Below are positions 13,894 through 52,020 of a DNA stretch of 64,000 nt, in pieces. The translations under genes and the position numbers were made by a program. The stretch lies in the NCBI RefSeq assembly GCF_009914755.1, contig NC_060946.1, one strand, 5' to 3'. Source of the DNA: the human T2T-CHM13v2.0 reference genome, Homo sapiens. The notes beneath the pieces are model-generated. The model made no database searches, was not told the origin of the DNA, and saw only the letters and a list, made by a program, of their open reading frames with translations. Every line of letters starts with the position of its first letter. Positions within the stretch are counted from its first letter, which is position 1.

Positions 13894-14349
13894 CTCCAAC
13901 CTAAAGTTAGTTTTAATGGATATTTTACACTTCTTTGTACAGCATGATTTTGTGGCCATTTTAATTTTAGAGTTAACCAAATTATTCCAGTTGCCAGAGG
14001 AGTATGATGCCTCTCTCTAACAAAAAGCTGTGTTCTCCCAATTTATTTTGAAAACTTAAAATATCTATCCTGCACATCTTAATCAATTTGGAGTAATAAG
14101 ATACTTTTATAGTTGTTCTATGATTGCTATTTTCCATTGCCATTAACCAGGAGTAAGCAAAAACCAGCAAGCCGTGTGGCTGGTGGTAACCAAGTGCCCG
14201 CAGTCTGGAAAATGCCAGGCTCAGAGAGTCAGTGGGGAGATACAAAATAGCGAGGGTAGACCCTGGGGCCCCAGGACCAGGAATGCTGAATGGTAGAAGT
14301 CACCCCTCTGAGCTGGACCGGCAGGCAAGCAGCCTGGCTGTGCACATGA

Positions 14350-14832
<483 letters not shown>

Positions 14833-16327
14833 TGAAGAGATGAGCATGCCTCAGTTTTCTTGGCGGGAGTTACAAGTGTGAGGCACCAGCTGCGTGCTGG
14901 CCTCATAGCTGCCCTGCATGGGTCTGAGGCTTTGACCTGGCTGTTCTGCTGAGTGAGGAGTGTAGCATTCCTTTTCACTGCTATCCTTCTAGCTACATAT
15001 ATAATTTCCCCCCAAGACTATGCCTATTTTTTATGTGACAGTTCTAATCATCCTGGCAAAACCAGTCAAGGTCTTCCAAAAAATGAAATTCTTTTTTCTT
15101 TTTCAAATGGAAACAAACAACCAGCTAGTAGGAGAATGAATGGGGAAAAAAGAGAATGAATGAGAGACATGGTGGGTGATGGGGAAATTAACAAAGCGGA
15201 AATGTCCCCTCATTCTCTCTCCTTAAAGCAGAAGCTCTGGAGTTATGTCCTGAAGGATCATTATGGTAGCATTAGCATAAGCTAAGAAAAGTATGTTCCC
15301 TGGAGAGGATGCTGCTAAACTTCATCTTCTTGCATTCTCTCCAACAGTACTTGTCCCCACTTGACTCAGGTCAAGAGATGTTAGCACTTAGAGGAGAACA
15401 GGTTGGCCCAGGCACAAGGTTTATGGCAGTCGGCTCAGTTCTAGCAATGTATGTGATGTGGCCAAATTCATATACATTGCCTTTCCCTTCCCCACTTTGC
15501 CCCTCTCCCAGTATCACCTCCACCTCCAAGATGCCACCTGTGCCTAAGAGGAATGACGGCTGCTGTGGGTCCAGTGGCTGCCTGGCTACCCATGTTGCCA
15601 CACAGCTGGCTGCCATTCCCACACCAGCCCCTCAGGAGGATGTGCATTTTAAAGCTATGGATTTAAGAGACTGGCGATTAAAATGTGGTGGTCTCAGTGG
15701 GAGAGGTGGCTGAGGACATCACTATAGTTCTCATAAGTAATGTCACGGTTTGCCACATTAGACTTGTCCCAGTTTCCCATGGTTCCTGGGGTTGGCTTTG
15801 GTTTGGGACGTGTGTTGGGAAGAAGAGAGATTTCCAGGATAGCAGCACCACTGTAAGACGGGTCTGGGCTGAGCCTGGGAGACCTGCCATGCTGCCAGAA
15901 CTTGGCAAGACCTTCAACAACCTTCTTGGATTGGAGACCCTGCTTTTCTTCTAAGAAGCCCCAATTCCCAAAAACCTAGAGCCTGGTTAACGCCAACACC
16001 ATCCCGGGGCCTTTCGGCTCTCTTTATTTATTGCTCTGGAATATCCCTGTGACCTCTTCCAACAGTTTTCACTCTTGGCAGGGAAACTTCCTTAAATTTA
16101 CTCGCAACACAACTAAGAGGAACTTCAGATGACCACTTGGGAGAGAGTACACTTTTGAACAGCTTTGAATCTAGAATGCGTTTCCCTGTTACACATACAC
16201 ATGTACCAGACACCTCCCACCCGCTCCTAATGTCGCTCGTGACTCTCATTTGCCTACTTGCTGAGCCCCCTATACCAGCCCTGTCCTCCTTCTCTAGCCT
16301 TTGATTGCCCAGCCCTTCCCCATCTAC

Positions 16328-16545
16328 TTTTTTTTTTGTTTTGCTTTTAAGAGACAGGGTCTTGCTGTGTCCCTGCCACTGGAGTGCAGTGGAACCACTG
16401 TAGCTCACTGCAGCCTTGACCTCATGGGCTCAAGTGATCCTTCCACCTCAGCCTCCCTGAGTAGCTGGGACTAGTAGGCATAGCCACCGGGCCTGGCTAA
16501 TTTTTTTTTTTTTTTTGGTAGAGATGGGTTTTTGCTCTGTTGCCC
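16328..16545 (-). mobile_element. AluJ partial
   Basis: right arm plus linker. Confidence 0.85.
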
Positions 16546-16692
16546 TGCCTGCTTCCACTTTCTCTTCAGCTTCTCCCTTGCCACCTGCTGGCTTCCCCAG
16601 TCCCATCCCGCCTGTTGCATCCCATAGCCCCACTCCCACGCCCCTGACCATGACTTGAAGCCATGCCAAGTGACCAAGATGTCCCATCCTGA

Positions 16693-17046
<354 letters not shown>

Positions 17047-17499
17047 ATATATACCTTCCCCTTGGCTGTGTCTCTTTATTTATGCTGTGCCATTCAAAGC
17101 ACATGTTCAAGAGAACAGAACACTCTCCCCGCCCCAGCCTGATTCCTGCCTTACCCAGGAGGAGGGTGCCTGGCCCCAGTACCCAGGGTGGCACGACTGG
17201 GCTAAGTGGACACTGAGCTTCATCAGGCCCTCCCTGGGTAGGAGCAGCTTTGTGTCACTAAAGAAAGTGAGGGCCACTGTCTCCGGCGGGTGAGGCTGCA
17301 GCCCAGTTTCACATGCGAGGAGGCCTAATCAGGAGTTTCAATTCCAGATCGGGCTGGGTCCAGCCCCAAAACATGGCCTGCTGGCTGGGGAGTGGGAACA
17401 CTCAGAGAAAGGGGAGATCTGGGCCTGGGAAGATTCCGGGGCAGGGGTGAGCGGACGTTCACATGAGTGGGTCTATAGCCCGCTCCGGGCATCATCTAG

Positions 17500-17985
17500 A
17501 CTTAGCATGCATTCACTCCCCCATCACATATTCCAATACACACCCTGTCCTAGGCACTGAGAGCTGGAGAGTTGGTGATAAGCGAGACGAACACATTTCC
17601 TGCCCTCATACACACATAAATAAAGTGAATGAGATCATGTCAGCTGGTGTCAAGTGAGAGAAAGTAAAAAGCAGTGGTGAGAGAGTGTCTGGGCGTGCTC
17701 CTGTGGACTGCGTGGTCAAGACAGCCTCATGGAGGCCTGGGCCGTGCAAAAGGATGCTAGGTGCAGGGAGAAGCAAGTGCAAAAGCTAGGAACAAGCTTG
17801 GAGCGTCTGCAGAGCAGAAAGGAGATTGTTTCCTGGAGGATGGTGAGAGGGGAAGAGTCAGAGAGACAAGACCCAGGAGCCAGGCAGGGCCAGAGAGCAT
17901 CCAGCCTTACAGGCCATGGAGAGGAGTTTAGAATTTTTTTCTAAGTGAAACAGAAGGATTTGGAAGGTTTCAAGCAGGATATGTA
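17500..17985 (-). mobile_element. L2 relic overlapping the TUBA8 3' end
   Basis: ctaggcactgag...cctgccctca...aagtgcaaaag...ggagtttagaatt motifs. Confidence 0.6.
17619..17624 (+). terminator. TUBA8: TUBA8 poly(A) signal AATAAA (3'UTR ~17047-17645)
   Basis: first AATAAA after the stop codon. Confidence 0.75.
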
Positions 17986-18117
17986 TACCTTATTTCTATA
18001 TTCATACTGACCTTATATCCAATCCTCCCAACAGTCTCAAAATGGATATTCTGCTCATTGTGTAGATGAACAGACTGGGATGTTTTAGGTGTTGGAGACA
18101 GTAGGAGGTAGAGCTGA

Positions 18118-18472
<355 letters not shown>

Positions 18473-18587
18473 TACCCTACGCCATTTCTAACACTGTGTG
18501 TTCGTGCCAGGTTCCAGCTACTGCCTGATAAAATGCTGGATGGAGAGAGGCACAATCTGTATCATTTGCAAAGGAGGGGGTGGTTAC

Positions 18588-18754
18588 CTGCTCCTCTTCC
18601 CTGAAGTGGGCAACTCTGGCGGAATCTAAGGAGTAATCAAAAGGCCATGAACCAGCTAGGAAGATACCTGGGGCTGGGCCCATGGTAGGTCCCTGGGCAT
18701 TAAGTGCACACTTCTTTACGTGTGGATGTTTCTGTCCTGTATTCCTTGGAAGCT
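18588..18754 (-). pseudogene. Relic transmembrane exon (MGPAPGIFLAG/FMAF*LLLRFRQ)
   Basis: ttttactctgtttctcttag acceptor, CAG|GTAACC donor, 167 nt (168 and phase 1-1 if one T is restored). Confidence 0.5.
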
Positions 18755-19306
18755 CTAAGAGAAACAGAGTAAAATGTCCCACGGAAAGGAAGATTAGACA
18801 TGAGGTGATGCCAGTTACTTCTAGAGGCCCAGATCTGTTGTCCACTGTGACCGCTCTTGCCAGAGGTCGTGCCTGCACCAGGTTCCATGGGAACTGGCCT
18901 GGACACACTTAGCCGTGGTAGAGAATCAGGGTCAGGAGCTGTCAGTCCCCCTTCAGGAGGATGCATCCTTCTCTCTCCATAAAGATGAGACCTACTCAGA
19001 TAACCTTGAAAGGACTTCCTGCATATGTGAGTATGCCCTGTTAGGGGGAGTATAGCACACCTGCTAGGCAGGGCTTAGGGAGGGGGCAAAGCTTGTGTGA
19101 TATGTTCCTTTCCTCTAGATTAACACAAATTAGGTTAAAAATTAGGTTGAATGGCAAAGTCACAAAAGTGCTAAGAGGCATGAATACAGGGAGATGGGTC
19201 AGCAGGGAAGTTTGGGATGATACACAAGGGCCTTGGATGTATCCCTGCTCCTCCCAACTGCTTCTCCTCTCCCACTTCTCCTCCTTTACTTGAGTCCCTG
19301 TCTAAC

Positions 19307-19389
19307 CATGGGGACTGCCAGCCCTGTCAGCTTCAGTGGTTCTGCTGATGAAGCAGGAGACTGAGTTTTAGAACTGGGGACAAGGGATC
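19307..19389 (-). pseudogene. Relic Ser/Pro-rich stalk exon (GSLVPSSKTQSPASSAEPLKLTGLAVPM)
   Basis: strong ctttcattctcaccctctttctag acceptor, ATG|GTTAGA donor. Confidence 0.45.
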
Positions 19390-19663
19390 CTAGAAAGAGG
19401 GTGAGAATGAAAGTGGGTGGCTCTCTACGATTCCCCAAAATAAGTAGTTTTGTAAGTCTTTCCCCAGCATGGGATTGCCTAGAGACTTAAACTTGTAAAG
19501 CAAATTTGGTGAACACTAGGGAAGAGATGGGAATCAGAAAAGAGAATTGCACAATGGCCTTTGGCAGGGAGCTTGGTTTCTCTACTGGGCTGAACAACTA
19601 GATAACCCGGTCCTGGAATCCCAGTGCAGCTCTCTTGGGACACTCTAAGTCATATTTACTTAC

Positions 19664-20916
<1,253 letters not shown>

Positions 20917-20929
20917 CTTGCAGTGGGGG

Positions 20930-22060
<1,131 letters not shown>

Positions 22061-22062
22061 AA

Positions 22063-22225
22063 TTTTTTTTTTTTTTTGTCAAGGTCTCACTCTCTCGCCC
22101 AGCCTGGAGTGCAGTGGCACAATCAGATCACTGAAGCCTTGAGCTCCTGGCCTCAAGCAATCCTCCTGCCTCATTTTCCTAAGTAGCTGGGGCTACAGGT
22201 GTCTGCCACCACACCTGGCTAAATT
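22063..22225 (-). mobile_element. AluJ right arm
   Basis: T-tail plus diverged arm. Confidence 0.85.
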
Positions 22226-22238
22226 AAAAAAAAAAATT

Positions 22239-22741
<503 letters not shown>

Positions 22742-22772
22742 TCAGCCAGTCGCGGGCAGGGGTAGGCAAAAC

Positions 22773-23118
22773 CTGTAGGTTCCTGTGGACGCCCTGGAAT
22801 TGTGCAGTTACTTCTGAGTGAGGCATGAAACCAGTGAGTTCTGAGGAGACAACTAACGCTGCAATTTAATTTCCAGTTAACCTGTGGAGCTTCAGAAGCT
22901 CTCACTCACAACTGGGATATTAACAAGGTCGGATCCGGAGGGAAGTCCCTCAGCACATAGAGCATGAAGTGTGCACCCCCCCGTGCAGCAAGTCCACGCT
23001 CGCTCAGAGATGGAGGGAAATAGGTAGGAGGAAGTCCTCACTGGGAACATTGTATGGGCTGCAACCTGGCTGCTCAAAACAAGGTTTATAACTGAAGTGT
23101 AGTTTACACAATGCTGAC
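22773..23118 (-). pseudogene. Relic CDCP1 exon-6-like segment
   Basis: strong ttccattacttccaacag acceptor; ESF*..PQVNWKLNCSVS..EVTAQF vs CDCP1 GSFC..KQIQVKQNISVT..GLTVSF; donor position uncertain. Confidence 0.6.
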
Positions 23119-23256
23119 CTGTTGGAAGTAATGGAAGAGGTTCATATGCACACATGGATAAAATTAAATGTTTAAGTCTGAGTTTAAATCTTACAAAAAA
23201 TAAAAAATAAACCAGATGAGGCCTAAAGAGGAAAAATTATTTACTTAAAAAATGCA

Positions 23257-24049
<793 letters not shown>

Positions 24050-24609
24050 TTGCTATGGTTGCCCAAGTTGGTCTCCAACTCCTGGGCTCCCTCCTACCTC
24101 AGCGTCCAGTGTGAGCCACTATGCTTGCTGTTGGTTCTATTTTTTAAAAAAACAAACAGAAACAAACAAACAAAAAACACCTACTCTGCCAATCTGTCTT
24201 TTTATTATTTTATTTCTATTTGATTTCAAAATTTTTATGGATGTGGCAAATTTGTTTGCCTCAGTATCATTAAATTGTAAAAACTAGATTTACAAAAAGA
24301 TATATATATTAAAAAAACCAGTGTAGTGGCTATTTTAGACTGTGGAATTATAAGTAATTTCCCCCTTTACATGTTTTATATTTTTCAGTTTTTCTACAGC
24401 GAATATATACTGCTTTATATTAAGGAAATGTTTACGTTAAGAATACTCAGTAGGCTACAGTTTCAAGATGAATTTTGTGGCCTGAAAGCTGGGGCTGTTG
24501 CTAATATTGTAAGGCCTTTGGCTTCCATTTGCTGTGAGATGTGGTACCAGTGGAAGGTTGTGAGCAGAGAAGTGACATTATCTGGCCTATGTTTATAAAT
24601 ACCTGCTGA

Positions 24610-24903
<294 letters not shown>

Positions 24904-24904
24904 G

Positions 24905-26690
<1,786 letters not shown>

Positions 26691-26705
26691 TTTCTTTTAG
26701 TGCTA

Positions 26706-27890
26706 TTTTTTTTTTTTTGAGACGGAGTCTTGCTCTGTCGCCCAGGCTGGAGAGCAGTGGTACTGAGAGGCAAAGCCAGCTGGGCTTCTGGGTCGGGTGG
26801 GGACTTGGAGAACTTTTCTGTCTAGCTAAAAAGGATTGTAAATGCACCAATCAGCGCTCTGTGACTAGCTAAAGGTTTGTAAACACACCAATCAGCACTC
26901 TGTAAAAACGCACCAATCGGCGCTCTGTGTCTAGCTAATCAGGTGGGGACCTGGAGAACTTTTCTGTCTAGCTAAAGGATTGTAAATGCACCAATCAGTG
27001 CTCTGTGTCTAGCTAAAGGTTTGTAAACACACCAATCAGCACTCTGTAAAAACACACCAATCAGCACTCTGTGTTAGCTAAAGGTTTGTAAAGGCACCAA
27101 TCAGCACTCTGTAAAAATGGACCAATCAGCGCTCTGTAAAATGGACCAATCAGCAGGATGTGGGTGGGGCCAAATAAGGGAATAAAAGCTGGCCACCTGC
27201 GCCAGCGGGGGCAACCCGCTGGGGTACTCTTACATGCTGTGGAGGCTTTGTTCTTTTGCTCTTTGCAGTAAATCTTGCTGTTGCTCATTTTTTGGGTCTG
27301 TACTACCTTTATGAGCTGTAACACTCAGCGTGAAGGTCTGCAGCTTCACTCCTCAAGTCAGCAATACCACGAACCCCCCGGAGGAACAAACAACTCCCAA
27401 CGTGCCACCTTTAAGAGCTGTAACACTCACTGCGAAGGTCTGCGACTTTACTCCTGAAGTCAGTGAGACCACGAACCCACCAGAAGGAAGAAACTCCAGG
27501 TACCTGTGAACATCTGAAGGAACAAACGCCAGACACACCAGCTTTAAGAACTGCAACACTCACTGCGAGGGTCCCAGCTTCATTCTTGAAGTCAGCGAGA
27601 CCAGGAACCCACCAGAAGGAACCAATTCCAGACACAGTACAATCTCAGCTTACTGCAACCTCTGCCTCCTGGGTTCAAGCGATTCTCTTGCCTCAGCTTC
27701 CCAAGTGGCTAGGATTACAGGCATTCACCACTGTGCCCAGCTAATTTTTTTTTTTTTTGTATTTTTAGTAGAGATGGGATTTCACCATGTTGGCCAGGTT
27801 GATCTTGAACTCCTGACCTCAGGTGCTCCACCCGCCTTGGCCTCCCAAAGTGCCGGGATTATGGGCATGGGCCACTGTGCCTGCCCTGGA
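26706..27890 (-). mobile_element. AluS split by LTR12
   Basis: continuous Alu once the LTR and one GTAC are removed. Confidence 0.92.
26764..27636 (+). mobile_element. Solo LTR12 (ERV9, short-U3 type) inserted in a - strand Alu
   Basis: TGAGAGG...GACACA, GTAC TSD, CCAAT tandem repeats, U5 repeats. Confidence 0.92.
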
Positions 27891-28147
27891 ATCTGATTCT
27901 TGCAGAGCAGTTGTTGATTTCACTACACTTGTCAGAAATCTTCTAAGCTGGGAAGGGGGAGGGGAAAAAAAAGAATCGTCTACGCTTCTTTACAGCAAAG
28001 GAAATAACAGGGAAGGGACAACCTACAGAATGGGAAAATATTTGCGAACTTGCATCTGACAAAGGATTAGTTACCTATATATAAACTGTATAAGAACCTC
28101 AAATAACTCAATAGTAAGGAAACAATCTGATTAAAAATGGGCAAATG

Positions 28148-28446
28148 GGCCGGGTGTGGTGGCTCAGGCATGTAATCCCAGCACTCTGGGAGGCTGAGGC
28201 GGGCGGATCACGAGGTCAGGAGATCGATACCATCCTAGCTAACACGGTGAAACCCCATCTCTACTAAAAATACAAAAAATTAGCCGGGTGTGGTGGTGGT
28301 CGCCTGTAGTTGCAGCTACTCGGGAGGCTGAGGCAGGAGAATGGCGTGAACCAGGAGGCAGAGGTTGCAGTGAGCCGAGACGTCCCACTGCACTCCAGCC
28401 TGGGTGACAGAGCAAGACTCCATCTCAAAAACAAAACAAAACAAAA
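28148..28446 (+). mobile_element. AluY-like in L1
   Basis: GGGCAAAT TSD. Confidence 0.93.
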
Positions 28447-28918
28447 ATAGGGCAAATAATCTGAAAAAGATTTTCATTTTCTCAAAAGAAGACATACTAA
28501 TGGCCATCAGGTATATAAGTAAATGCTCAACATCACTAAGCATCAGAGAAATGCAACTGAAACCACATTAATAGGTATCATCTCACCTCAGTTAAAATGG
28601 CTATTATCAAAAGACAGAAAATAACAAATTTTGGGGAGGATGTGGAGAAAAGGAAACCCTCGTACACTGTTGGTGGAAATGAAAATTCGTACAACCATTG
28701 TGGAAAACAGTATGGAGGTTTCTCAAAAAATTGAAACTAGAACTACCATATGATCTAGCAATCCCACTGCTGGGTATACACCCAAAAGAAAGCAAATCAG
28801 TATATTGAAGAGATATCTGCACTCCCATGTTTACTGCAGGACTAGTCACAATAGCCAAGATATGGAATCAATCCAAGTGTCCATCAACAGATGAATGGAT
28901 AAAAAACATGCTAGATAA

Positions 28919-29216
<298 letters not shown>

Positions 29217-30109
29217 CTACATATACACAGTGGAATACTATTTAGTCATAAAAAGAATGAAATCCCGTCGGTTGTAGCAACATGGATGAAACCAGAGGAC
29301 ATTACGTTAAGTGAAATAAGCTAGGCACAGAAAGATACATATCCCACCTTCTCACTCCTATGTGGGAGCTAAAAACGTTGATTTCAGGGAGGTGGAGAGT
29401 AGAATGATGACTACCAGAGGCTGGCAAGCAATAGGAGGGAGGGAAGGATGAAAAGTGTTGGTTATGGGTACAAAGATAGTTAGATAGAGGGAATGATAGT
29501 ACTGTACAGTGATAATAGTTAACAATAATTTATTGTATATTTCAAAATAGCTAGAAGAGAAGATTTGGAATGTTCCCAGTACAAAGAAATAATAAACGTT
29601 TGAGGTGATGAATACCTTCATTACCCTGATTTGATCATTGCACATTGTATGCATGTATCAAAGTATCACATGTAACACATAAATATGTACAATTACTATG
29701 TATCTATAAAAATAAGAAACAAAGGAAAACAGTTGCTGTATAAACAATACTGGGATAACTGTCAAAATTTAAATATTGAATATATTATATATGGGAAAAT
29801 TGTACGGATATGAAATTATCTGAATTTGGTAATAATTGCACTGGGGTTATGTATGAAAACATCTTTGATCCTATGAGGTTCATATTGAATTATTTAGAGC
29901 TGAAGAATGTCAATCTCTTCAATTTACTCTCAAGTAGTCCAGCAAAAGAAAAAAAGTGATTGTGTAAATATATACACATATATACTGTGTACTCACACAT
30001 ACACATAGATGTGTGTGTATGAGAGAGAAAATTAGTGAAGGAAGGCTCACTAGGTTGTTATAATATTTGTATAACTTTTCTTTATGTTTAACATTTCTTT
30101 TCTAATATA

Positions 30110-30316
30110 AAATATTTAATTTTGAATGGTTCTCCATTAAGGCAACAAATTGCCAGAGGATAGGGAGTGCCTGGGAAAGGTGACAGATGCCAAGTCACAT
30201 TCTGTTTGAGTTGCACCCTGAAACCCATGCCAGGAAAATGAAATGTGGAGTTCTGTTTGACTGCTTCCACTCAACAGCTCCCTCTCCTCAGGAGAATGCA
30301 TGTTCCCAAAACAATA
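30110..30316 (-). pseudogene. Relic CDCP1 exon-3-like segment
   Basis: cctccctctcag acceptor; VEAVKQNSTFHF..R..VTWHLS..AICCLNGEPFKIK vs CDCP1 VKAHKSIGLELQF..R..VTHSIS..GTFCSNGTVSRIK; 3' part runs into L1-like sequence. Confidence 0.7.
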
Positions 30317-30495
30317 CTGAGAGGGAGGTTCAATGTTTAATTCATCTTAAAAATTATTTTTTATATTTGGAAGCATGCAAAACACAGTAAAATTTACAAT
30401 AAAAAGCATCCTGACAAAATGCAGAGAAGAAAATAGGCAGGAGAAAGTTGTGGAAAGGGACTGAGCAGAGGTCACATGAAACCACGCGTTTGTAG

Positions 30496-30863
<368 letters not shown>

Positions 30864-31184
30864 ACATCACTTCCCCTTATCCCATGCAACAAACCCTGTC
30901 CTTTCCCCAGGACAAAAATTCTTGTCAGTTTCTATAAATTGTTCCTCACGTTGGGCAAATAGCTTTTTTCTAAATAGCTTTCCATTTTGAGGGGAACTAG
31001 ATTATCGCATTAAAGTTAGCCAACATCTTCCTCTGTGACCAGGTTTTTAGACAGAATTTTAAAGTGAGGTAGGTAGGTGTGGCCTTTTGCCTCATACTTC
31101 TTTATTTTATTTTTTTTTAAAGGGAAAAAGAGTAAGAAATTCAGATGATGAGAATTCCAGGGACACTGAAAGTATCCCAAATTG

Positions 31185-31330
31185 GCAGAAATACTGTGTA
31201 AACTACAGAAAATGCTTCTCAGGGCCCACACTTTCTTTTGAAACAAATATTACACAATTTCATTATAAACTCTTTCGCGCATGATTTTGAGAAATCTTTC
31301 CACCAATGCTTTCAAAAAGCACAATCTGTC
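31185..31330 (-). pseudogene. Relic CDCP1 exon-2-like segment
   Basis: ICFKRKC/GPEKHFL (frameshift) vs CDCP1 IVFTFSCQSPENHFV; boundaries uncertain. Confidence 0.5.
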
Positions 31331-31908
31331 TTAATAAAAAACTACTACCTGGTACTATTATTTTACATTTTAAAATTGTGAAACAGTATTAAGCCTACAG
31401 AAAAGTTGCAAGTATAGTCCAAAGAACTTCCTTCTTGAACTATTTGAGAGTCAGTTTTCCACGTGACATTGCATTTCTCCCAAATCCCCGCCTGTGAAGT
31501 TACTACCACCTAATCCTCAGACCCCATTCAAGCTTCACCCGTTGTGCCAATATTGTCCTTTACAGCCAAAGGATCCAGTTGGGGATCTCCTGTTCATCTA
31601 TGACCTCTTTGGTCTCTGCCAGTCTGGAGCCGTTCCTCAAAGCTGTCTTTGATTTTCATGAATCGTTTGAAGATGGCAGACCAGCTGATCTGCAGAATGC
31701 CCCTCGATTTGGGTTGGCCAGGACCCGCGTCCTGGCGAAGGGGTTCCGGTTACTGACCTTCGATGGGAACAGCACAGAAGTGATACCGCGCTGGCTCCAC
31801 TCTGTCCTCTGGTGGCACGCAATTCCAGTGTTCCCCGCACTGATGACTTTCTTGTACCGAATATTTACATTAATTACATTCTTTATAGTTATAATGTAAT
31901 ATTACATA

Positions 31909-32518
31909 TGAGACCATGGGGTTCATCTGATTAGGTCTGCCCAATTTAGCCTGCCCTGCTTGCTTTGGGTCACTTGCTTTTGTTATTTTTTTTCTGTGAA
32001 GCTGAAGGCCGCGCCACTGAGCGCTGTAACTTAACCTTGCCGGCTTCCTTACAGATAACATGTATGTCACTACTGTCATGATCGTTCAAATTGTTTTTCA
32101 GGAACTTGGGGCAGCTCCTGCCTAGTTCAAACCAGTTGAGACCGTGAGCTTTCAAGTAGGCTTGTGCAAACAAAAGAAGTGGCCTTTTGACATCAGAGGC
32201 CCCAAGCGACACCCTCAGATCACGCTAAGGCTGTCATTTTTTGAACATGTGCCCTGTGAAGTGCCACGAACCCTGACTATGCTTGCAGTGGTCACCGACT
32301 GCCTCATTTTCCCCCACTGCCAATCACCTTTGCCCATACCTTACACCACCCTGCTTCTCTCACCGGTAAATATCCCTAAGACTTATCTTTGGGGAGGAAG
32401 ATTTGAGAGCTGTTCTCCTGCCTCCTCACTGGGCTGCCTTGCGAATAAATCTTTTCTCTTTTACAAAACCTGTCACAGTGATGGATTTATGGCATGCGGG
32501 CAGAATGAACCTGTATCA
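31909..32518 (+). mobile_element. Solo ERV1-class LTR (subfamily uncertain), AATAAA at 32444
   Basis: TG...CA ends, CATA/CATG imperfect TSD, interrupts an L1MC-like relic. Confidence 0.65.
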
Positions 32519-32691
32519 CATGTATGTAATAATGGTAATTAATAATATGTATTTTGTGGGAGAGTACTTTGAAACTGTGTAAATATCCTGTTTCTCATCA
32601 AACTTTTAATTTATTCAGTATCTACTTTTATTGGTATGAAGTGTGGCTTCCCATTTTATTTAACAGGTCGAAATGTTACTATCATCATTTC

Positions 32692-33135
<444 letters not shown>

Positions 33136-33213
33136 CTAGGCTCATCTTGTACTTTCTCTGCCTTAACCCCAGAAACAGCCATTTCTCCAAGCAACATTGG
33201 TTCCTTTTACTAG

Positions 33214-33604
<391 letters not shown>

Positions 33605-34410
33605 GTACTTCTTTATCTATCTGTGTATACATACTGAAAATCATGGATCCACACTGCTAAGTCCAATTCCAGTTCAACACTAGTGGGCTCATTCTCCCTT
33701 TCCTTATTTGTAACTCCTATCTCTGAGAGTTTCAACTCTGGCTCCAATTATCCTTAATACATTCAGTTACCTGGTCATCCCCCTGTATGTAACTAATCTG
33801 TCATCTCCACCAGCACCCTGCCCTCCCTGGACACCACACACTGGGCCACTCCAATACCGGGATGTGCCACATCTTCAAATTGCTTGGGCTGTGACCCTGG
33901 GCCGGGCTGCACCAGCACCCATTTGTGTCTGACATTGTGCTGGGCAGCCCCACTGTGCTGCCACCCTCCTCAACCTGCTCCAGTCCAGCACCCTGCTTGG
34001 GCCACTGTGGAACATACTACACAAACGCCCACTTTGCTTGACACACCTGATGGCCTTAGCACGGAATTGTTCAGGAGGGTACCATGAAGGACGGAAGGAA
34101 GAGCCCCATAGAAGTGTAATGGATCCTTACATTATATAGTCCAGCCTCCAACCCAAGGTTCACCCTTGTCCATTCTGCACTGGGGCAGCAACACCAATTA
34201 CTTTGCTCCACCGACCTACCAAGATTCAGATAGAATCATTGGATTGACTATTAATAGTTTTCTGCTGATAGTTGCTGCAAGCAACTGCAGCTTGCTCCTT
34301 AGCCTTCTACTGACTTGCTGTATTTAGCATATTTTATCAAATTTTGCAACCTCCTCTCCTCATTGCCCTCACTTGAGTTTTTGAGGTTCCTGTTTGTGGA
34401 CAAGACTTAC

Positions 34411-34872
34411 CAGATGTATGAAGCTGGTTATATAACTGATTGGTCAGCAAATATAATGAGGACGGACCCTGCGCCCACCACCGTGTACCTGTGTAAACAC
34501 CATACTGCGCAAAGTCCACCAGCCTTCCAGGGAGAACATGCTGCACTGTGGGCGACACTGCCTCCGTTCCAGCAGCAATGTAAGCGGAGTCTGGGCTGAC
34601 GATGGACGTGTGGATAGCCTGTATGTGTATATCTGTGCTCATGCTTCTAACACACATCCACCCTATTATGGACACGTTTATACATCTTCATGCCATGGTA
34701 TTTTGTACCTTACTGCAGACCCTACCAACGCTTCAGTGAGGTTCTGGCAGCTTTGGGTTTTTGGAGGCTATTTGTCTGTTGCTGCGGGGACGGCTTTCAG
34801 AAAGAATGATCGCTTTGGGGGAATTGTACCCTGCTTTCCTGCGCAAATTCCAGCGGCTGGAGTTTGAGGCCC
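34411..34872 (-). pseudogene. Relic canonical CUB domain, two exons (~34872-34709 and 34618-34411)
   Basis: DK*PPKTQSCQNLTEALVGSAVR|LS spliced in frame over a 90-nt GT-AG intron; ends GAGSVLIIFADQSVI*PASY; perfect CTG|GTAAGT donor at 34411. Confidence 0.55.
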
Positions 34873-34990
34873 CTAGCAGATAACCCTTCTGCCCCTACCC
34901 CCATGAGTCTACATACAAGAAATACATCTCTAAAGAGGTAATAAGCCTTTCCGGTGTGCATGTTACAGATCTCTTAACCTTATATATACA

Positions 34991-35363
34991 CAGATGGTCC
35001 ATCACTTACCGTGGTTTCACTTACGATGTTTCGACTTCATGATGGGTTCACTGGGACTTGACCCCATTTTTTTTTTTTTTTTTTAGACGGAGTCTTGCTC
35101 TTGTCGATCTCTGCTCACTGCAACCTCCGCTTCTTGGGTTCAAGTTATTCTCCTGCCTCAGCCTCTTAAGTAGCTGGGATTAAGCGCCACCACGCCGAGC
35201 TAATTTTTGTACTTTTAGTAGAGATGGGGTTTCACTATGTTGGTCAGGCTGGTCTCGAACTCCTGACCTCAGGTGATCCGCCTGCCTCAGCATCCCAAAG
35301 TGCTGGGATTACAGGTGTGAGCCACCGCGCCCCCTGACCCCTTCTTAAGTGGAGAAATATCTG
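34991..35363. mobile_element. Short Tigger/MER47-type DNA transposon split by an Alu
   Basis: CAGATG...ATCTG inverted ends, acttacgatg motifs. Confidence 0.55.
35067..35333 (-). mobile_element. AluS
   Basis: TGACCCC TSD. Confidence 0.9.
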
Positions 35364-35398
35364 TATCTGCATGCCCACAGGGGAGCTCCTAATTACAC

Positions 35399-35487
35399 CA
35401 TGTGCCGCATCCAAGCCACAGGCCGGTGATGTGAAGACACCCGATCCAAGAAATACAATAGCATTAAGAAAGAAAAAATGCTGCCAT
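35399..35487 (-). pseudogene. Relic signal-peptide exon (MAAFF/FLNAIVFLGSGVFTSPACG-LDAAH)
   Basis: ATG at 35487-35485 with +4 G; one extra base in the T run; A-C-G cleavage-like motif; phase-1 CATG|GTGTAA donor. Confidence 0.45.
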
Positions 35488-35568
35488 GGATACTACCAAA
35501 CGCCAAATGACTCTAACACGTAGGCTAATTGCAAGGACCTTAAAATCGCAAATAAAAAGGCGCCTGTA

Positions 35569-35852
35569 GGTCGGGCGCGGTGGCCCACACCTGTAATCCC
35601 AGCACTTTAGGAGGCGGGCGGATCACCTGAGACCAGCCTGGCCAGCATGGCGGAACCCCATCGCTACTAAAATACAAAAATTAGCCAGGAGTGGTGGCGC
35701 ATGCCTGTAATCCCAGCTACTCCGGAGCCTGAGGCAGGAGAATCGCTTGAACCCAGGAGGCGGAGTTTGCAGTGAACCGAGACAGCGCAACCGCACTCCA
35801 GCCTGGACGACAGAATGAGACTCCGTCTCAAAAAAAAAAAAAAAAAAAAAAA
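35569..35852 (+). mobile_element. AluS abutting the USP18 promoter
   Basis: dimer with internal deletions, A tail ends 35852. Confidence 0.92.
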
Positions 35853-35967
35853 GCGAGGGCTGGAAGTCTGGAGCAGGTGCGCGGCTGCAACGGCAGCCGC
35901 GGGAAGCTCGGGCCGGCAGGGTTTCCCCGCACGCTGGCGCCCAGCTCCCGGCGCGGAGGCCGCTGTA

Positions 35968-35980
35968 AGTTTCGCTTTCC
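35968..35980 (+). promoter_or_regulatory. USP18: ISRE AGTTTCGCTTTCC
   Basis: exact match to the AGTTTCNNTTTCC ISGF3/IRF consensus; USP18 is a known ISG. Confidence 0.9.
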
Positions 35981-35987
35981 ATTCAGT

Positions 35988-36001
35988 GGAAAACGAAAGC
36001 T
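35988..36001 (-). promoter_or_regulatory. USP18: second, inverted ISRE/IRF-E GGAAAACGAAAGCT
   Basis: GAAANNGAAA core. Confidence 0.75.
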
Positions 36002-36079
36002 GGGCGGGGTGCCACGAGCGCGGGGCCAGACCAAGGCGGGCCCGGAGCGGAACTTCGGTCCCAGCTCGGTCCCCGGCTC

Positions 36080-36132
36080 AGTCCCGACGTGGAACTCAGC
36101 AGCGGAGGCTGGACGCTTGCATGGCGCTTGAG
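36080..36132 (+). other. USP18: USP18 non-coding exon 1 (TSS approximate; may start as far up as ~35900), GC donor GAG|GCAAGT
   Basis: AG|GCAAGT fits the GC-AG donor consensus; joins the exon 2 acceptor at 43468. Confidence 0.75.
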
Positions 36133-36593
36133 GCAAGTTCGGGGCTCATTTTGGAAGTTTTCTTTCTAGCACAGACATCCAACTCTGCTCCTATGCCAGT
36201 CAGATAATTAAGGAATTAAGTAATAATTGTGCTCTGCAAATTATGATAGTGATCTGTATTTACTACGTGCATATATTTTGGGCCAGTGAATTTTTTTCTA
36301 AGCTAATATAGTTATTTGGACTTTTGACATGACTTTGTGTTTAATTAAAACAAAAAAAGAAATTGCAGAAGTGTTGTAAGCTTGTAAAAAAATTCAAACA
36401 ATGCAGACAAATGTGTCTCGCAGTCTTCCACTCAGTATCATTTTTGTTTGTACCTTATCAGAAATGTTTCTATGTACAAGTCTTTAAAATCATTTCGAAC
36501 TTGCTTTGTCCACTGAGTATATTATGGACATCTTTTCATGGCAGGACATATAGATGTGTTAATGGCATTAAAAATAAAACAAAAAACTGATTC

Positions 36594-38035: not shown

Positions 38036-39043
38036 CTACAATTGTGGTTGCCATGATGGGGTGGGTCGGAAGACACCGAGGCTGCTTGAATCATGTTCCT
38101 GGCAGGTTAATTTTGTTCCTTTTAGGGCATCTAAATGTTGGAGTTGGCTTTCCTGGCAGAGAGTCCAGTTGTGAGTGGAGTATTGGGTGGAGGCCCCACC
38201 CTCCCCAGGTTTTCTGCAGCTTGTTCCTGGCTCTTCTGGGGCTTCTCTGAGGACCCCGATTGGTCCTGGGGCTTCTTTAGTGGTGGGCCTGGGCCAGTTC
38301 CTTCCGTTGCTCACCTCTCCCCGAAGCTTAAGGATAACATTTCGGGAAGATCATGAGAGAACGTGAACCAAAAAAAAAAAAAAAAATTCAGGTAGGGTGG
38401 GAGCTAAGTTAGTTTAGTATTTGGGATTTTTGTTTTGTTTTGTTTGAGACAGAGTCTCAAACAAAGACCCCGCGCCTGGCCTGGGGGTCTTTTTTTGAGT
38501 CAGCAGTTGAGTTTGAAAATCCCCTTCCTTGGAATCCGCCCAGGCTGTTTTCTCTGGTGGATGCTTATTGCCCCTGCTAACTTCAGCTGCGGTCTCTCTG
38601 CTCGCCTTGCCCTCCCCATCCTCCTTAGACCTTTTAAGCTTCACTTTCCTTTCCTTGCTGCCCCGCCTCCCTGTCTCCCCAGTGTGATCTACCCTGAAAG
38701 GCTGCTGTATTTTGTTTCCCTTTGGGACCGAGCCTGCTCAAATGATCTGCTCCATGAGGTTTTACTGCTATATCCTACTGAAGTATCTGGGAGGTCTTGG
38801 CGGAGAAGAGGACAACATCTTGGAAAATGCAGCCTGGAACCTCTCTGCTCTCTTTCATCAGCTTTCCCTCAATGATGAGCTCAAAATCCTCTTTCTTGCT
38901 GATGGAATTGTCTGCTGTCATCATTTCAGTTGAGTCCTCCTAGGCTGGGCCTTGTAAGAAGAACAACTGTTTATAACTATTGAAAGTCAATATTTACTAA
39001 GAAAAAGAGGTTGTTGTTATCTGAGCCATCCAACATGAATTTA

Positions 39044-49704: not shown

Positions 49705-51324
49705 CTATGTTGTTAGCGGCCCTCAGGAGATTAGAATGTGTCAAGTCCTGTCAGTGCCCTAGACAGGGGAGATAGAAACCAGCCCCTTGAGGTGCAGGTG
49801 GAGACGTTGGGGCATTAAATGTGTGTTCCAGTTTATTCTATCCTCAGGGAAAAGCTGGGAGCATGAGTTAATCCGCCACTTGCTCTGCAAAACGCTGGAC
49901 AGAGGATCTGTGGCAAGTGCCTGCACTCATATTGAAACTGCACACTCCTTCACGCATTGTTTTACTCTTTGTCACCCCCAGGGGCCTAGCGAATGCTGGC
50001 TGCTCTCTGCTTAGAGACGGACAGGTTAGTTGGAAGCTTGACGCTATCTGTTGAGCAAACCAGTGGGAGCAGCTGTGGAGGTGCTCACCTGCCTGTTCAG
50101 GGTCTCAGAGGAGCACTGGTTTCCTGCTCTGTCAGCTCCCAGATGCATAGAAACCCCAGGGCAGCAGCTGCACTGTGCAGACAAACTCCTTCTAGGGAGA
50201 AAGTAGGAGCCGGGCCTTTTTGCCTGTTCACGCTGCACTGGGCCTGGGGGGATGTTCTTTGGTCTCTGTGCCCCTGTGGGACTTACAAATACAGAGCCTT
50301 GTCAGCTCCCAAAGCTCGGTGGTCGAGGAGCTAGACCTTCATTTGAGAGGGGTAAATGTGTACTCAATGTGTGAAGTTAGAGACCTGATTTTACCATACA
50401 GCAGGGGGTGGGAGAAGGCATGGGACTTGCCCACAGGCCTGTCCAGACTCCTGGAAATCTATTGTTTACCTGCCTCATTGGCTCCAGGTGCAGGCCAGTT
50501 ATTAATAGAAGCCCATCCCTCGGGCAACAGCTAGGAGAGCCCGCAGACATATCCTTCCAGGGAGAAACTGGAAGCCTGGCATTTCTGCCTGTTTGCTCTG
50601 TGCTGAGCACAGCTGCTGGAAGTGCTCACGTGCCCGTTTAAAACTGCCTCTTTGCCCTCTGTGGTCGCAGAGGATTCATAACTGCTGACCCATGTCTGCT
50701 CCCAGAGCTAGGTGACCCAGCAGCCAAGCCCTTGAGTGGGAACTGCAAAAGCTGGGGCTGCCTATGTGTGGTCCAAACCCTCCCCTCTCCAGGAGAAAGC
50801 TGGGAGTAGGGATTCCTTCCTCACAGTAAGGTACTGTGTCTGGGGTGGGGCTTGTGGTGCGAGTGTGTCTCAGCTTTTCCAACCGGTTGCGATGTGGGTG
50901 TTCTCCCCATTGCCCCCTGTGCAGGCCTCTCTCAGCTGGTTTCTGGGTTTCTTTCAGAGGGAGTTGATCTGTGTGTAGATGAGAGTTTTACCGTGTGTCC
51001 ATGGGAGAAGGGGAGCACCAGGAGCCTCCTTCTCTACCATCTCGCTTGTGTCACCCTCTGTGATTCTTTTTATACATAGTTGAATTTGATTCACTAATAT
51101 TTTGTTGAGGAATTTTGCATTTATGTTCACGGGAGATACTGGTTTTTAGGTTTTTTTCTTACAATGTCTGTCTGGTTTTGGTGTTAGGATAATGCTGGCC
51201 TCAGAGAATGAGTTAGGAAGTGTTCTCTCTGCTTTTGTCCTCTGGAAGAGGTTGTAGGGAATTGGTATAATTTTTCCCATAAATGTTTGGTAGAACCCAT
51301 CGTTCACTAGTGAACCCATCTGGG

Positions 51325-52020
51325 TGTAACTGAGTACTCCCATTTTCTAAGAGATAGTTATATTAGTTTTCTTATTACTTTCTTTTCACTTCTCCTCTTC
51401 CCATCCCTCACCCCTCACCGCGGCCGTGTTTCCTGTTTCCTGTTAGCCCTTTAGAAATGCAAATATCACCTTTCGCCTACCCCTCTCCAGACATTCCCTG
51501 CTGGGCAAAAGGAAGAATCTGTAAATGGAGGTAGGCTGATGGAGGTTTGATTGAGAACGGGCAAGTTCTTCCAGCTGATCTTTCCTGAGACTTGGCAGTA
51601 GATTTGCAGCCCAAAGCATACCCACCAGGGAACTCTCCCTGCCAGGGGGTGGCTTCGAAACTTCCACCCTCTAGGGGTTTGTCTTTCACCCACTAGGAAG
51701 GCATGGAGAAAGCATGCCCACTCGGCCACTTTTCTGCCCGGAAAGGCGCCAACTCAGCTGCTGGGAACTTGATAACTGCCCGGTAGAAAACCGCCATTGC
51801 TCACTCCCCCCACCCCCACAACACACCTTATGAAAATGCCCCTCTCTCCTCCAAAGGAGAAATGGCACATTAAAAGGCAGGATGTGTCTTGCTCCTTGCC
51901 CCAGGCTGGCTTCAGAATAAATTCACATTTGTGTATAAAACCTTTTGTATCACATTTTTTTTTGTATCAGAGTTAGTTGAGCTCTACACGCAGTGAGCAG
52001 CTCCTCAGCTTTTCGCTGCA
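51325..52020 (+). mobile_element. Solo ERV1-class LTR (MER67-like) in USP18 intron 4, AATAAA at 51916
   Basis: TGTAAC...GCA ends, TGGG/TAGG imperfect TSD. Confidence 0.6.

What the first reader, a model, noticed from the sequence alone, without database searches (positions are those of the whole stretch)
35399..36132. Lost gene is head-to-head with USP18 across a palindromic ISRE pair: a possible extinct interferon-stimulated gene
Seen: the putative signal-peptide ATG (- strand, 35487) is ~480 bp from the ISREs, and ~285 bp of that is an Alu (35569-35852), so before the Alu inserted it lay ~200 bp away. The two ISREs point in opposite directions. Inference: the USP18 promoter was once bidirectional, co-inducing a CUB-domain surface protein with the IFNAR feedback inhibitor. 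Residual IFN-induced antisense RNA using the relic splice sites may persist.
Basis: inference. Interest (0 to 1): 0.72.

Follow-up and report, generated by a model that had tools for sequence, protein, structure and literature searches.

The report
USP18 interferon promoter, no lost gene
This is the ordinary interferon-switched promoter of the human USP18 gene, which likely also fires backwards into a faint non-coding RNA already listed in a 2015 paper; the proposed extinct protein gene beside it got no support from the tests run here.

Summary
The sequence facts hold: two opposite ISRE-type motifs (35968-35980, 35988-36000) in a single-copy CpG island 80-100 bp before USP18, an Alu at 35569-35852, and a minus-strand ATG at 35487, 481 bp from the first motif. 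Backward firing is already in print: Kambara 2015 (PMC4311693, Table S1) lists USP18-UA, an IFN-alpha-induced minus-strand RNA that maps to about 35650-13940 and ends 21 nt after an ATTAAA. Its expression values duplicate another row, and I saw no strand-specific test of it.

The lost CUB gene is unsupported. The ATG hits a stop at codon 8. A splice- and frameshift-aware CUB profile scores the region 15.6 bits against a null of 15.1±2.1, while real CUB exons decayed by 10% average 37-78. Pfam, PDB, the human genome and a mammal-rich protein database gave no homologue, though only one of three frames went to the large databases. Most proposed splice sites are weak, and 68 of 148 other-or-same non-exonic strong donors allow an equally open two-exon chain. 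A very old or non-CUB fossil is not excluded (about 7%).

The parts
35968..35980 (+). ISRE 1, exact match to the consensus AGTTTCN2TTTCN
   Evidence: consensus as written in PMC12944882
35988..36000 (-). ISRE/IRF-type site 2, inverted relative to site 1; core TTTCNNTTTC intact, the AG flank replaced by GC
35853..36135 (.). Single-copy CpG island (GC 0.70, CpG o/e 0.94) holding the USP18 promoter, one GC box at 36002, no TATA or CCAAT match; RefSeq enhancer 35821-36140
   Evidence: hub annotation
36080..36132 (+). USP18 exon 1 (non-coding), GC-type donor
   Evidence: hub annotation
35569..35852 (+). Alu with internal deletions and no clean target-site duplication
13939..35653 (-). Reported IFN-alpha-induced divergent RNA USP18-UA (span converted from hg19; exon structure not given)
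   Evidence: ATTAAA at 13965-13960 lies 21 nt before the reported end
35399..35487 (-).
34990..35364 (.). Short inverted-end DNA-transposon relic (Tigger-like; family name recalled) split by an Alu at about 35070-35335; supplies two GTAAGT donor-like sites (35024, 35009) on the minus strand
34709..34830 (-).
34410..34618 (-). Best exon-like stretch: unique, GC 0.54, one frame open for about 70 codons, strong donor GTAAGT, poor acceptor; no homologue or domain found

Best explanation
This is the interferon-responsive CpG-island promoter of USP18, whose two inverted ISRE/IRF-type motifs likely recruit ISGF3 and IRFs and likely drive transcription both ways: forward into USP18 and backward into a faint, transient non-coding RNA (USP18-UA), with no lost protein gene needed. 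Shown: the motifs, island, Alu and distances; a published table row for an IFN-induced minus-strand RNA over this interval; a poly(A) hexamer at its reported end. Inferred: factor binding at these exact bases in human; that the backward RNA starts in or beside the island; that it escapes early termination because the first 2.6-3 kb of the minus strand hold no AATAAA/ATTAAA and three GTAAGT sites (two donated by a transposon relic); that the 'relic exons' are chance look-alikes in unique promoter-flanking DNA.
For: Motif pair non-random in the island (0 of 3000 shuffles), 80-100 bp from the USP18 start; USP18 listed as an ISRE-only ISG; STAT1/2 bind the mouse Usp18 promoter. USP18-UA, log2 -6.5, -1.7, -6.6, -5.4 at 0, 3, 9, 24 h, among 11 lncRNA rows of which most are divergent partners of ISGs; its end falls 21 nt after ATTAAA, true of 3.4% of minus-strand positions. 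First minus-strand A[AT]TAAA at 33015; GTAAGT at 35024, 35009, 34410 against about 0.3 expected per 1.7 kb. Negative lost-gene tests: with positive controls.
Against: The USP18-UA expression values are identical to those of the USP18-IT1 row, so one row may be a copy; levels are very low; in the part I read, strand-specific RT-PCR was shown for BISPR/BST2 only. The reported 5' end lies inside the Alu, about 315 bp from ISRE 1. A PAS-free run this long occurs at 7% of sampled starts, so it is only suggestive. The 34410-34618 stretch is mildly coding-like (p 0.06-0.13), and one frame of the three proposed exons carries a single stop in about 139 codons. No genome alignment to other mammals could be made.
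Confidence: 0.7

Rival explanations
1. The promoter is effectively one-way; USP18-UA is an assembly artefact or read-through of minus-strand transcription from the FAM230D side, and the upstream DNA is neutral.
For: USP18-UA and USP18-IT1 have identical values in all four time points; USP18-IT1 coordinates map onto FAM230D (63948 versus annotated 63936); RefSeq 2025 lists no RNA here; no other paper used the names searched.
Against: The authors count it among two novel transcripts that met their criteria; its 3' end sits just after a poly(A) hexamer; divergent RNAs are listed for MX1, LY6E, BST2 and others in the same table.
Confidence: 0.18
2. The unique DNA at 34050-34980 and 35370-35568 is a very old fossil of a protein gene of some non-CUB or highly divergent kind, and the backward RNA is its leftover transcript.
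For: Stretch is single-copy, GC- and CpG-richer than its flanks, has one strong donor and an open frame of about 70 codons; one frame of the three joined exons has one stop in about 139 codons. My tests lose power at 30% decay, and two of three frames were not sent to the large protein databases.
Against: The most open frame found no relative among 5.8 billion proteins that include over 100 mammalian USP18s (control 70) nor among 1.84 billion representatives (one repeat artefact); 68 of 148 non-exonic strong donors give such chains; no entry in PhyloCSF pseudogene lists or the fossil-lncRNA tables.
Confidence: 0.07
3. One reading: a CUB-domain surface-protein gene lay head-to-head with USP18, was co-induced by interferon through the inverted ISRE pair, and died, perhaps around the Alu insertion.
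For: By eye, a hydrophobic run after the ATG and short Cys/Gly/Ser-Pro motifs resemble a signal peptide and CUB starts; geometry fits a two-way promoter; a backward RNA is reported.
Against: CUB profile score 15.6 against null 15.1±2.1, 37% of 152 tiles as high; lenient settings 32-40%; spliced model 39% of 300 shuffles. No Pfam CUB hit, none among the 150 scored genome-wide CUB candidates. Acceptors have 5 and 7 of 17 pyrimidines against 9-16 in 14 real ones. No intervening gene in zebrafish, mouse, primates or in cat, pig, horse gene lists.
Confidence: 0.04

Closest known systems
USP18-UA (Kambara et al. 2015, PMC4311693, Table S1)
   Same: Same locus and strand: a minus-strand RNA from the USP18 promoter region, called a putative bidirectional-promoter lncRNA, induced at 3 h of IFN-alpha.
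   Different: The table gives only a span; no exons, no function, values duplicated with another row. It makes no claim of a lost gene.
BST2/BISPR and other ISG-lncRNA head-to-head pairs (MX1-UA, LY6E-UA)
   Same: ISRE-containing promoter with a divergent IFN-induced lncRNA; lack of early AWTAAA and presence of U1 sites proposed there to explain stability.
   Different: BISPR is spliced, validated and far more abundant, and its promoter lacks a CpG island; USP18-UA is about -1.7 log2 at peak and unvalidated in what I read.
CUB domain family (Pfam PF00431) and unitary pseudogenes
   Same: Only a few short motifs seen by eye.
   Different: No profile match above background, no homologue, no listed pseudogene or syntenic intact gene.

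Membership tests
ISRE-driven ISG promoter | Consensus AGTTTCN2TTTCN near the start site | tested here: met
   Site 1 exact, 100 bp before 36080; site 2 core only
ISRE-driven ISG promoter | STAT1/STAT2/IRF9 binding at these bases in human cells | not testable with these tools
   Mouse Usp18 promoter binding reported; no human base-level data seen
Bidirectional ISG/lncRNA promoter | Divergent transcript starting within about 1 kb of the ISG start | tested here: met
   USP18-UA 5' end maps to 35653, about 430 bp from 36080; literature table only
Bidirectional ISG/lncRNA promoter | Co-induction by interferon, confirmed strand-specifically | tested here: inconclusive
   About 27-fold rise at 3 h in the table, but values equal those of another row
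CUB-domain protein gene | Match to CUB profile (PF00431 or own profile, with stops, frameshifts, introns allowed) | tested here: not met
CUB-domain protein gene | Beta-sandwich fold | tested here: inconclusive
   Single-sequence model of the 70-aa open frame, mean pLDDT 44.6
CUB-domain protein gene | N-terminal signal peptide in frame with the ATG | tested here: not met
   Stop at codon 8; hydrophobic run needs a shift or read-through and is matched by 4.2% of 764 ATGs
Unitary pseudogene | Intact orthologue or homologous protein in other species | tested here: inconclusive
   None for the one frame searched in the large databases (control 70); other frames only in Pfam, PDB and the human genome
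Unitary pseudogene | Gene at the syntenic position in outgroups | tested here: inconclusive
   None named in zebrafish, mouse, primates, cat, pig, horse, but such lists can omit unnamed genes; no vertebrate genomes other than human on hand
Unitary pseudogene | Relic exons with credible splice sites and coding signature | tested here: not met
   Of the three proposed exons only the 34410 donor is strong; both acceptors weak; codon scores p 0.06-0.85; chain frequency 68 of 148

The most novel reading that the evidence does not exclude
USP18-UA is the still-transcribed, interferon-induced fossil of an ancient secreted or membrane-protein gene that stood head-to-head with USP18, too decayed or too divergent for the profiles used, with 34410-34618 as its best-preserved exon.
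Probability: 0.07. Interest if true: 0.6.

Novelty: already known. Interest (0 to 1): 0.2.

Why it matters
USP18 is the main brake on type I interferon signalling, so a backward RNA from its promoter could tune that brake as BISPR does for BST2; USP18-UA is listed but, in the papers my searches reached, never followed up, and this report gives it window coordinates, a candidate poly(A) site and candidate donors to test. An extinct co-induced gene would be a real evolutionary finding, but nothing here supports it.

Tried and rejected
Pfam on 12 long frames over 17.6-36 kb (minus strand throughout, plus strand 30-36 kb only), 21 short frames and 3 frames of 13-16.75 kb: no relevant family. Genome-wide CUB scan: none of the 150 scored of 302 candidates lies here. 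Own CUB profile: one search used all 30 fetched segments, two of them translated on the wrong strand; these two were dropped from then on (28 of 30). PDB: only chance-level hits (ROR2 kringle E 0.9). The single hit of the 1.84-billion search was a tandem-repeat artefact. The coding-looking stretch at 31350-31715 is an old interspersed repeat. By eye the same DNA also resembles kringle, EGF and WD40 motifs (recalled patterns, untested beyond Pfam and PDB), which shows how easily such matches arise. The protein atlas could not read the new sequence, so that look-up is missing. Inverted ISRE pairs elsewhere: 0 of the 30 fetched loci lie in CpG islands, so they gave no comparison set. No Rfam family in 13-37 kb. 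I first read the main text of PMC4311693 as showing only an intronic USP18 lncRNA; the supplement reversed that.

Full report
Observation. The region was read on both strands. The two motifs are at 35968-35980 and 35988-36000, inverted, 10 of 13 alike, 7 bp apart, inside a CpG island (GC 0.70, o/e 0.94) that is single-copy in the genome. In 3000 dinucleotide shuffles of the island two cores never arose, so the pair is real in its context; genome-wide the inverted pattern is not enriched (81 matches, 101 for the reversed control). The ATG at 35487 is 481 bp from site 1, 197 bp without the 284-bp Alu. The Alu shows no clean target-site duplication, but only 17 of 32 near-full Alus did in my scan, so the pre-insertion distance is unproven rather than wrong.

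The promoter. Site 1 matches the consensus given in a review that lists USP18 as an ISRE-only gene (PMC12944882, passages). STAT1/2 binding at the mouse Usp18 promoter is reported (PMC9900254, passages). Binding at these human bases is inferred.

Backward transcription. [quoted passage not shown] I took the coordinates as hg19 (the paper used GENCODE v19) and anchored on the USP18 3' end: the RNA spans about 35653 to 13939. Two checks fit: the neighbouring row maps 12 bp from the annotated FAM230D end, and an ATTAAA ends 21 nt before 13939, as for 3.4% of positions. Against it: the four values are identical to those of the USP18-IT1 row, the level is very low, and I saw no strand-specific test of it. 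A search for USP18-UA, USP18-AS1, lncUSP18, lnc-USP18 or 'USP18 antisense' listed one paper, by the last phrase, which I did not read. On the minus strand the first A[AT]TAAA is at 33015 and GTAAGT occurs at 35024, 35009 and 34410; two of these lie in a short transposon relic with other genomic copies. This would favour a long rather than an early-terminated RNA; a run this free of signals occurs at 7% of 456 starts, so the step is an inference.

The lost gene. The ATG frame stops at codon 8. Pfam found no relevant family in 12 long, 21 short and 3 further frames; no genome-wide CUB match lies here (150 of 302 candidates scored). A profile from 28 human CUB segments, aligned with stops, frameshifts and introns allowed, gave 15.6 bits for 34000-35600 against 15.1±2.1 in 152 tiles (max 21.9; 37% as high); lenient settings and the spliced three-exon model were equally null. 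Power: held-out real CUB loci averaged 37-78 bits at 10% decay (8 of 8 above the null maximum), 16-34 at 20% (7 of 8) and 18-27 at 30% (overlapping the null). So a canonical CUB gene lost in roughly the primate era is unlikely, an older or atypical one is not excluded. No human paralogue was found for any of three frames. The most open frame found nothing among 5.8 billion proteins, where a 56-aa USP18 exon found 112 relatives across mammals, and only a repeat artefact among 1.84 billion representatives (vertebrate coverage of that library not checked). The other two frames were not sent to these databases. Splice sites, scored on 13 donors and 14 acceptors of the window's own genes: 34410 is strong (11.4), 34708 middling (3.6), 35398 weak (0.8); acceptors have 5 and 7 of 17 pyrimidines against 9-16. 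Codon scores are unremarkable, best p 0.06-0.13, and this test has little power after decay. The fold model is uninformative (pLDDT 44.6).

Other species and catalogues. PMC7549372 (section 4.1) gives PEX26-TUBA8-USP18 in mouse and primates and PEX26 next to USP18 in zebrafish. Gene lists for pig, cat and horse (passages) name nothing CUB-like; one horse list has an unnamed entry (A0A5F5PYI1) I could not identify. The bat synteny paper (passages) names no extra gene. In PMC6886504 I saw no entry at this site in the first 30 of 128 chr22 places of Data S1 (they span the position-sorted pseudogene rows on both sides), the second half of Data S3, or the held part of Data S6, which was cut (hg38 position from recalled coordinates). 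PMC5577775 supplements hold no USP18, TUBA8 or PEX26 by name and none of 13 chr22 places in file 4 falls here. Searches for USP18+TUBA8+pseudogene (3 papers) and USP18+synteny+CUB domain (0) showed no such gene. Other papers seen as passages only and not bearing on the verdict: PMC6235974, PMC12929432, PMC5525349, bioRxiv 2020.05.18.103101; bioRxiv supplements were not available.

Verdict. It works like other ISG promoters with a divergent lncRNA (BST2/BISPR type), and that feature of USP18 is already listed. It is not shown to be a CUB gene or a unitary pseudogene.

Noticed in passing
window 63948 onward: The 'USP18-IT1, antisense intronic' row of PMC4311693 Table S1 maps onto FAM230D, tail-to-tail with USP18, not to an intron; its values duplicate USP18-UA.
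   Followed up: partly
window 35809: The GENCODE v19 5' end of USP18 maps inside the Alu, upstream of both ISREs, so some forward transcripts may start before the motifs.
   Followed up: no
window 13939-17642: If USP18-UA is real it overlaps the last TUBA8 exon in antisense and ends in the last TUBA8 intron; possible interference with TUBA8 during interferon responses.
   Followed up: no
window 38645 and 51379: IRF-like TTTCNTTTC motifs fall inside RefSeq enhancers 38500-38749 and 50918-51607 in USP18 introns.
   Followed up: no
window 36133: USP18 exon 1 uses a GC donor, and GC content drops from 0.70 to 0.33 right after it; the stretch is single-copy.
   Followed up: partly
window 31350-31715, 31918-32513, 33620-33826: Old interspersed repeats, mostly outside the listed masked stretches; the first looks coding by eye.
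   Followed up: partly
outside the window, upstream of PEX26: PMC5577775 lists lncRNA XXbac-B476C20.9 as syntenic with a Xenopus gene lost in mammals, without significant sequence similarity; a nearby but different site.
   Followed up: no
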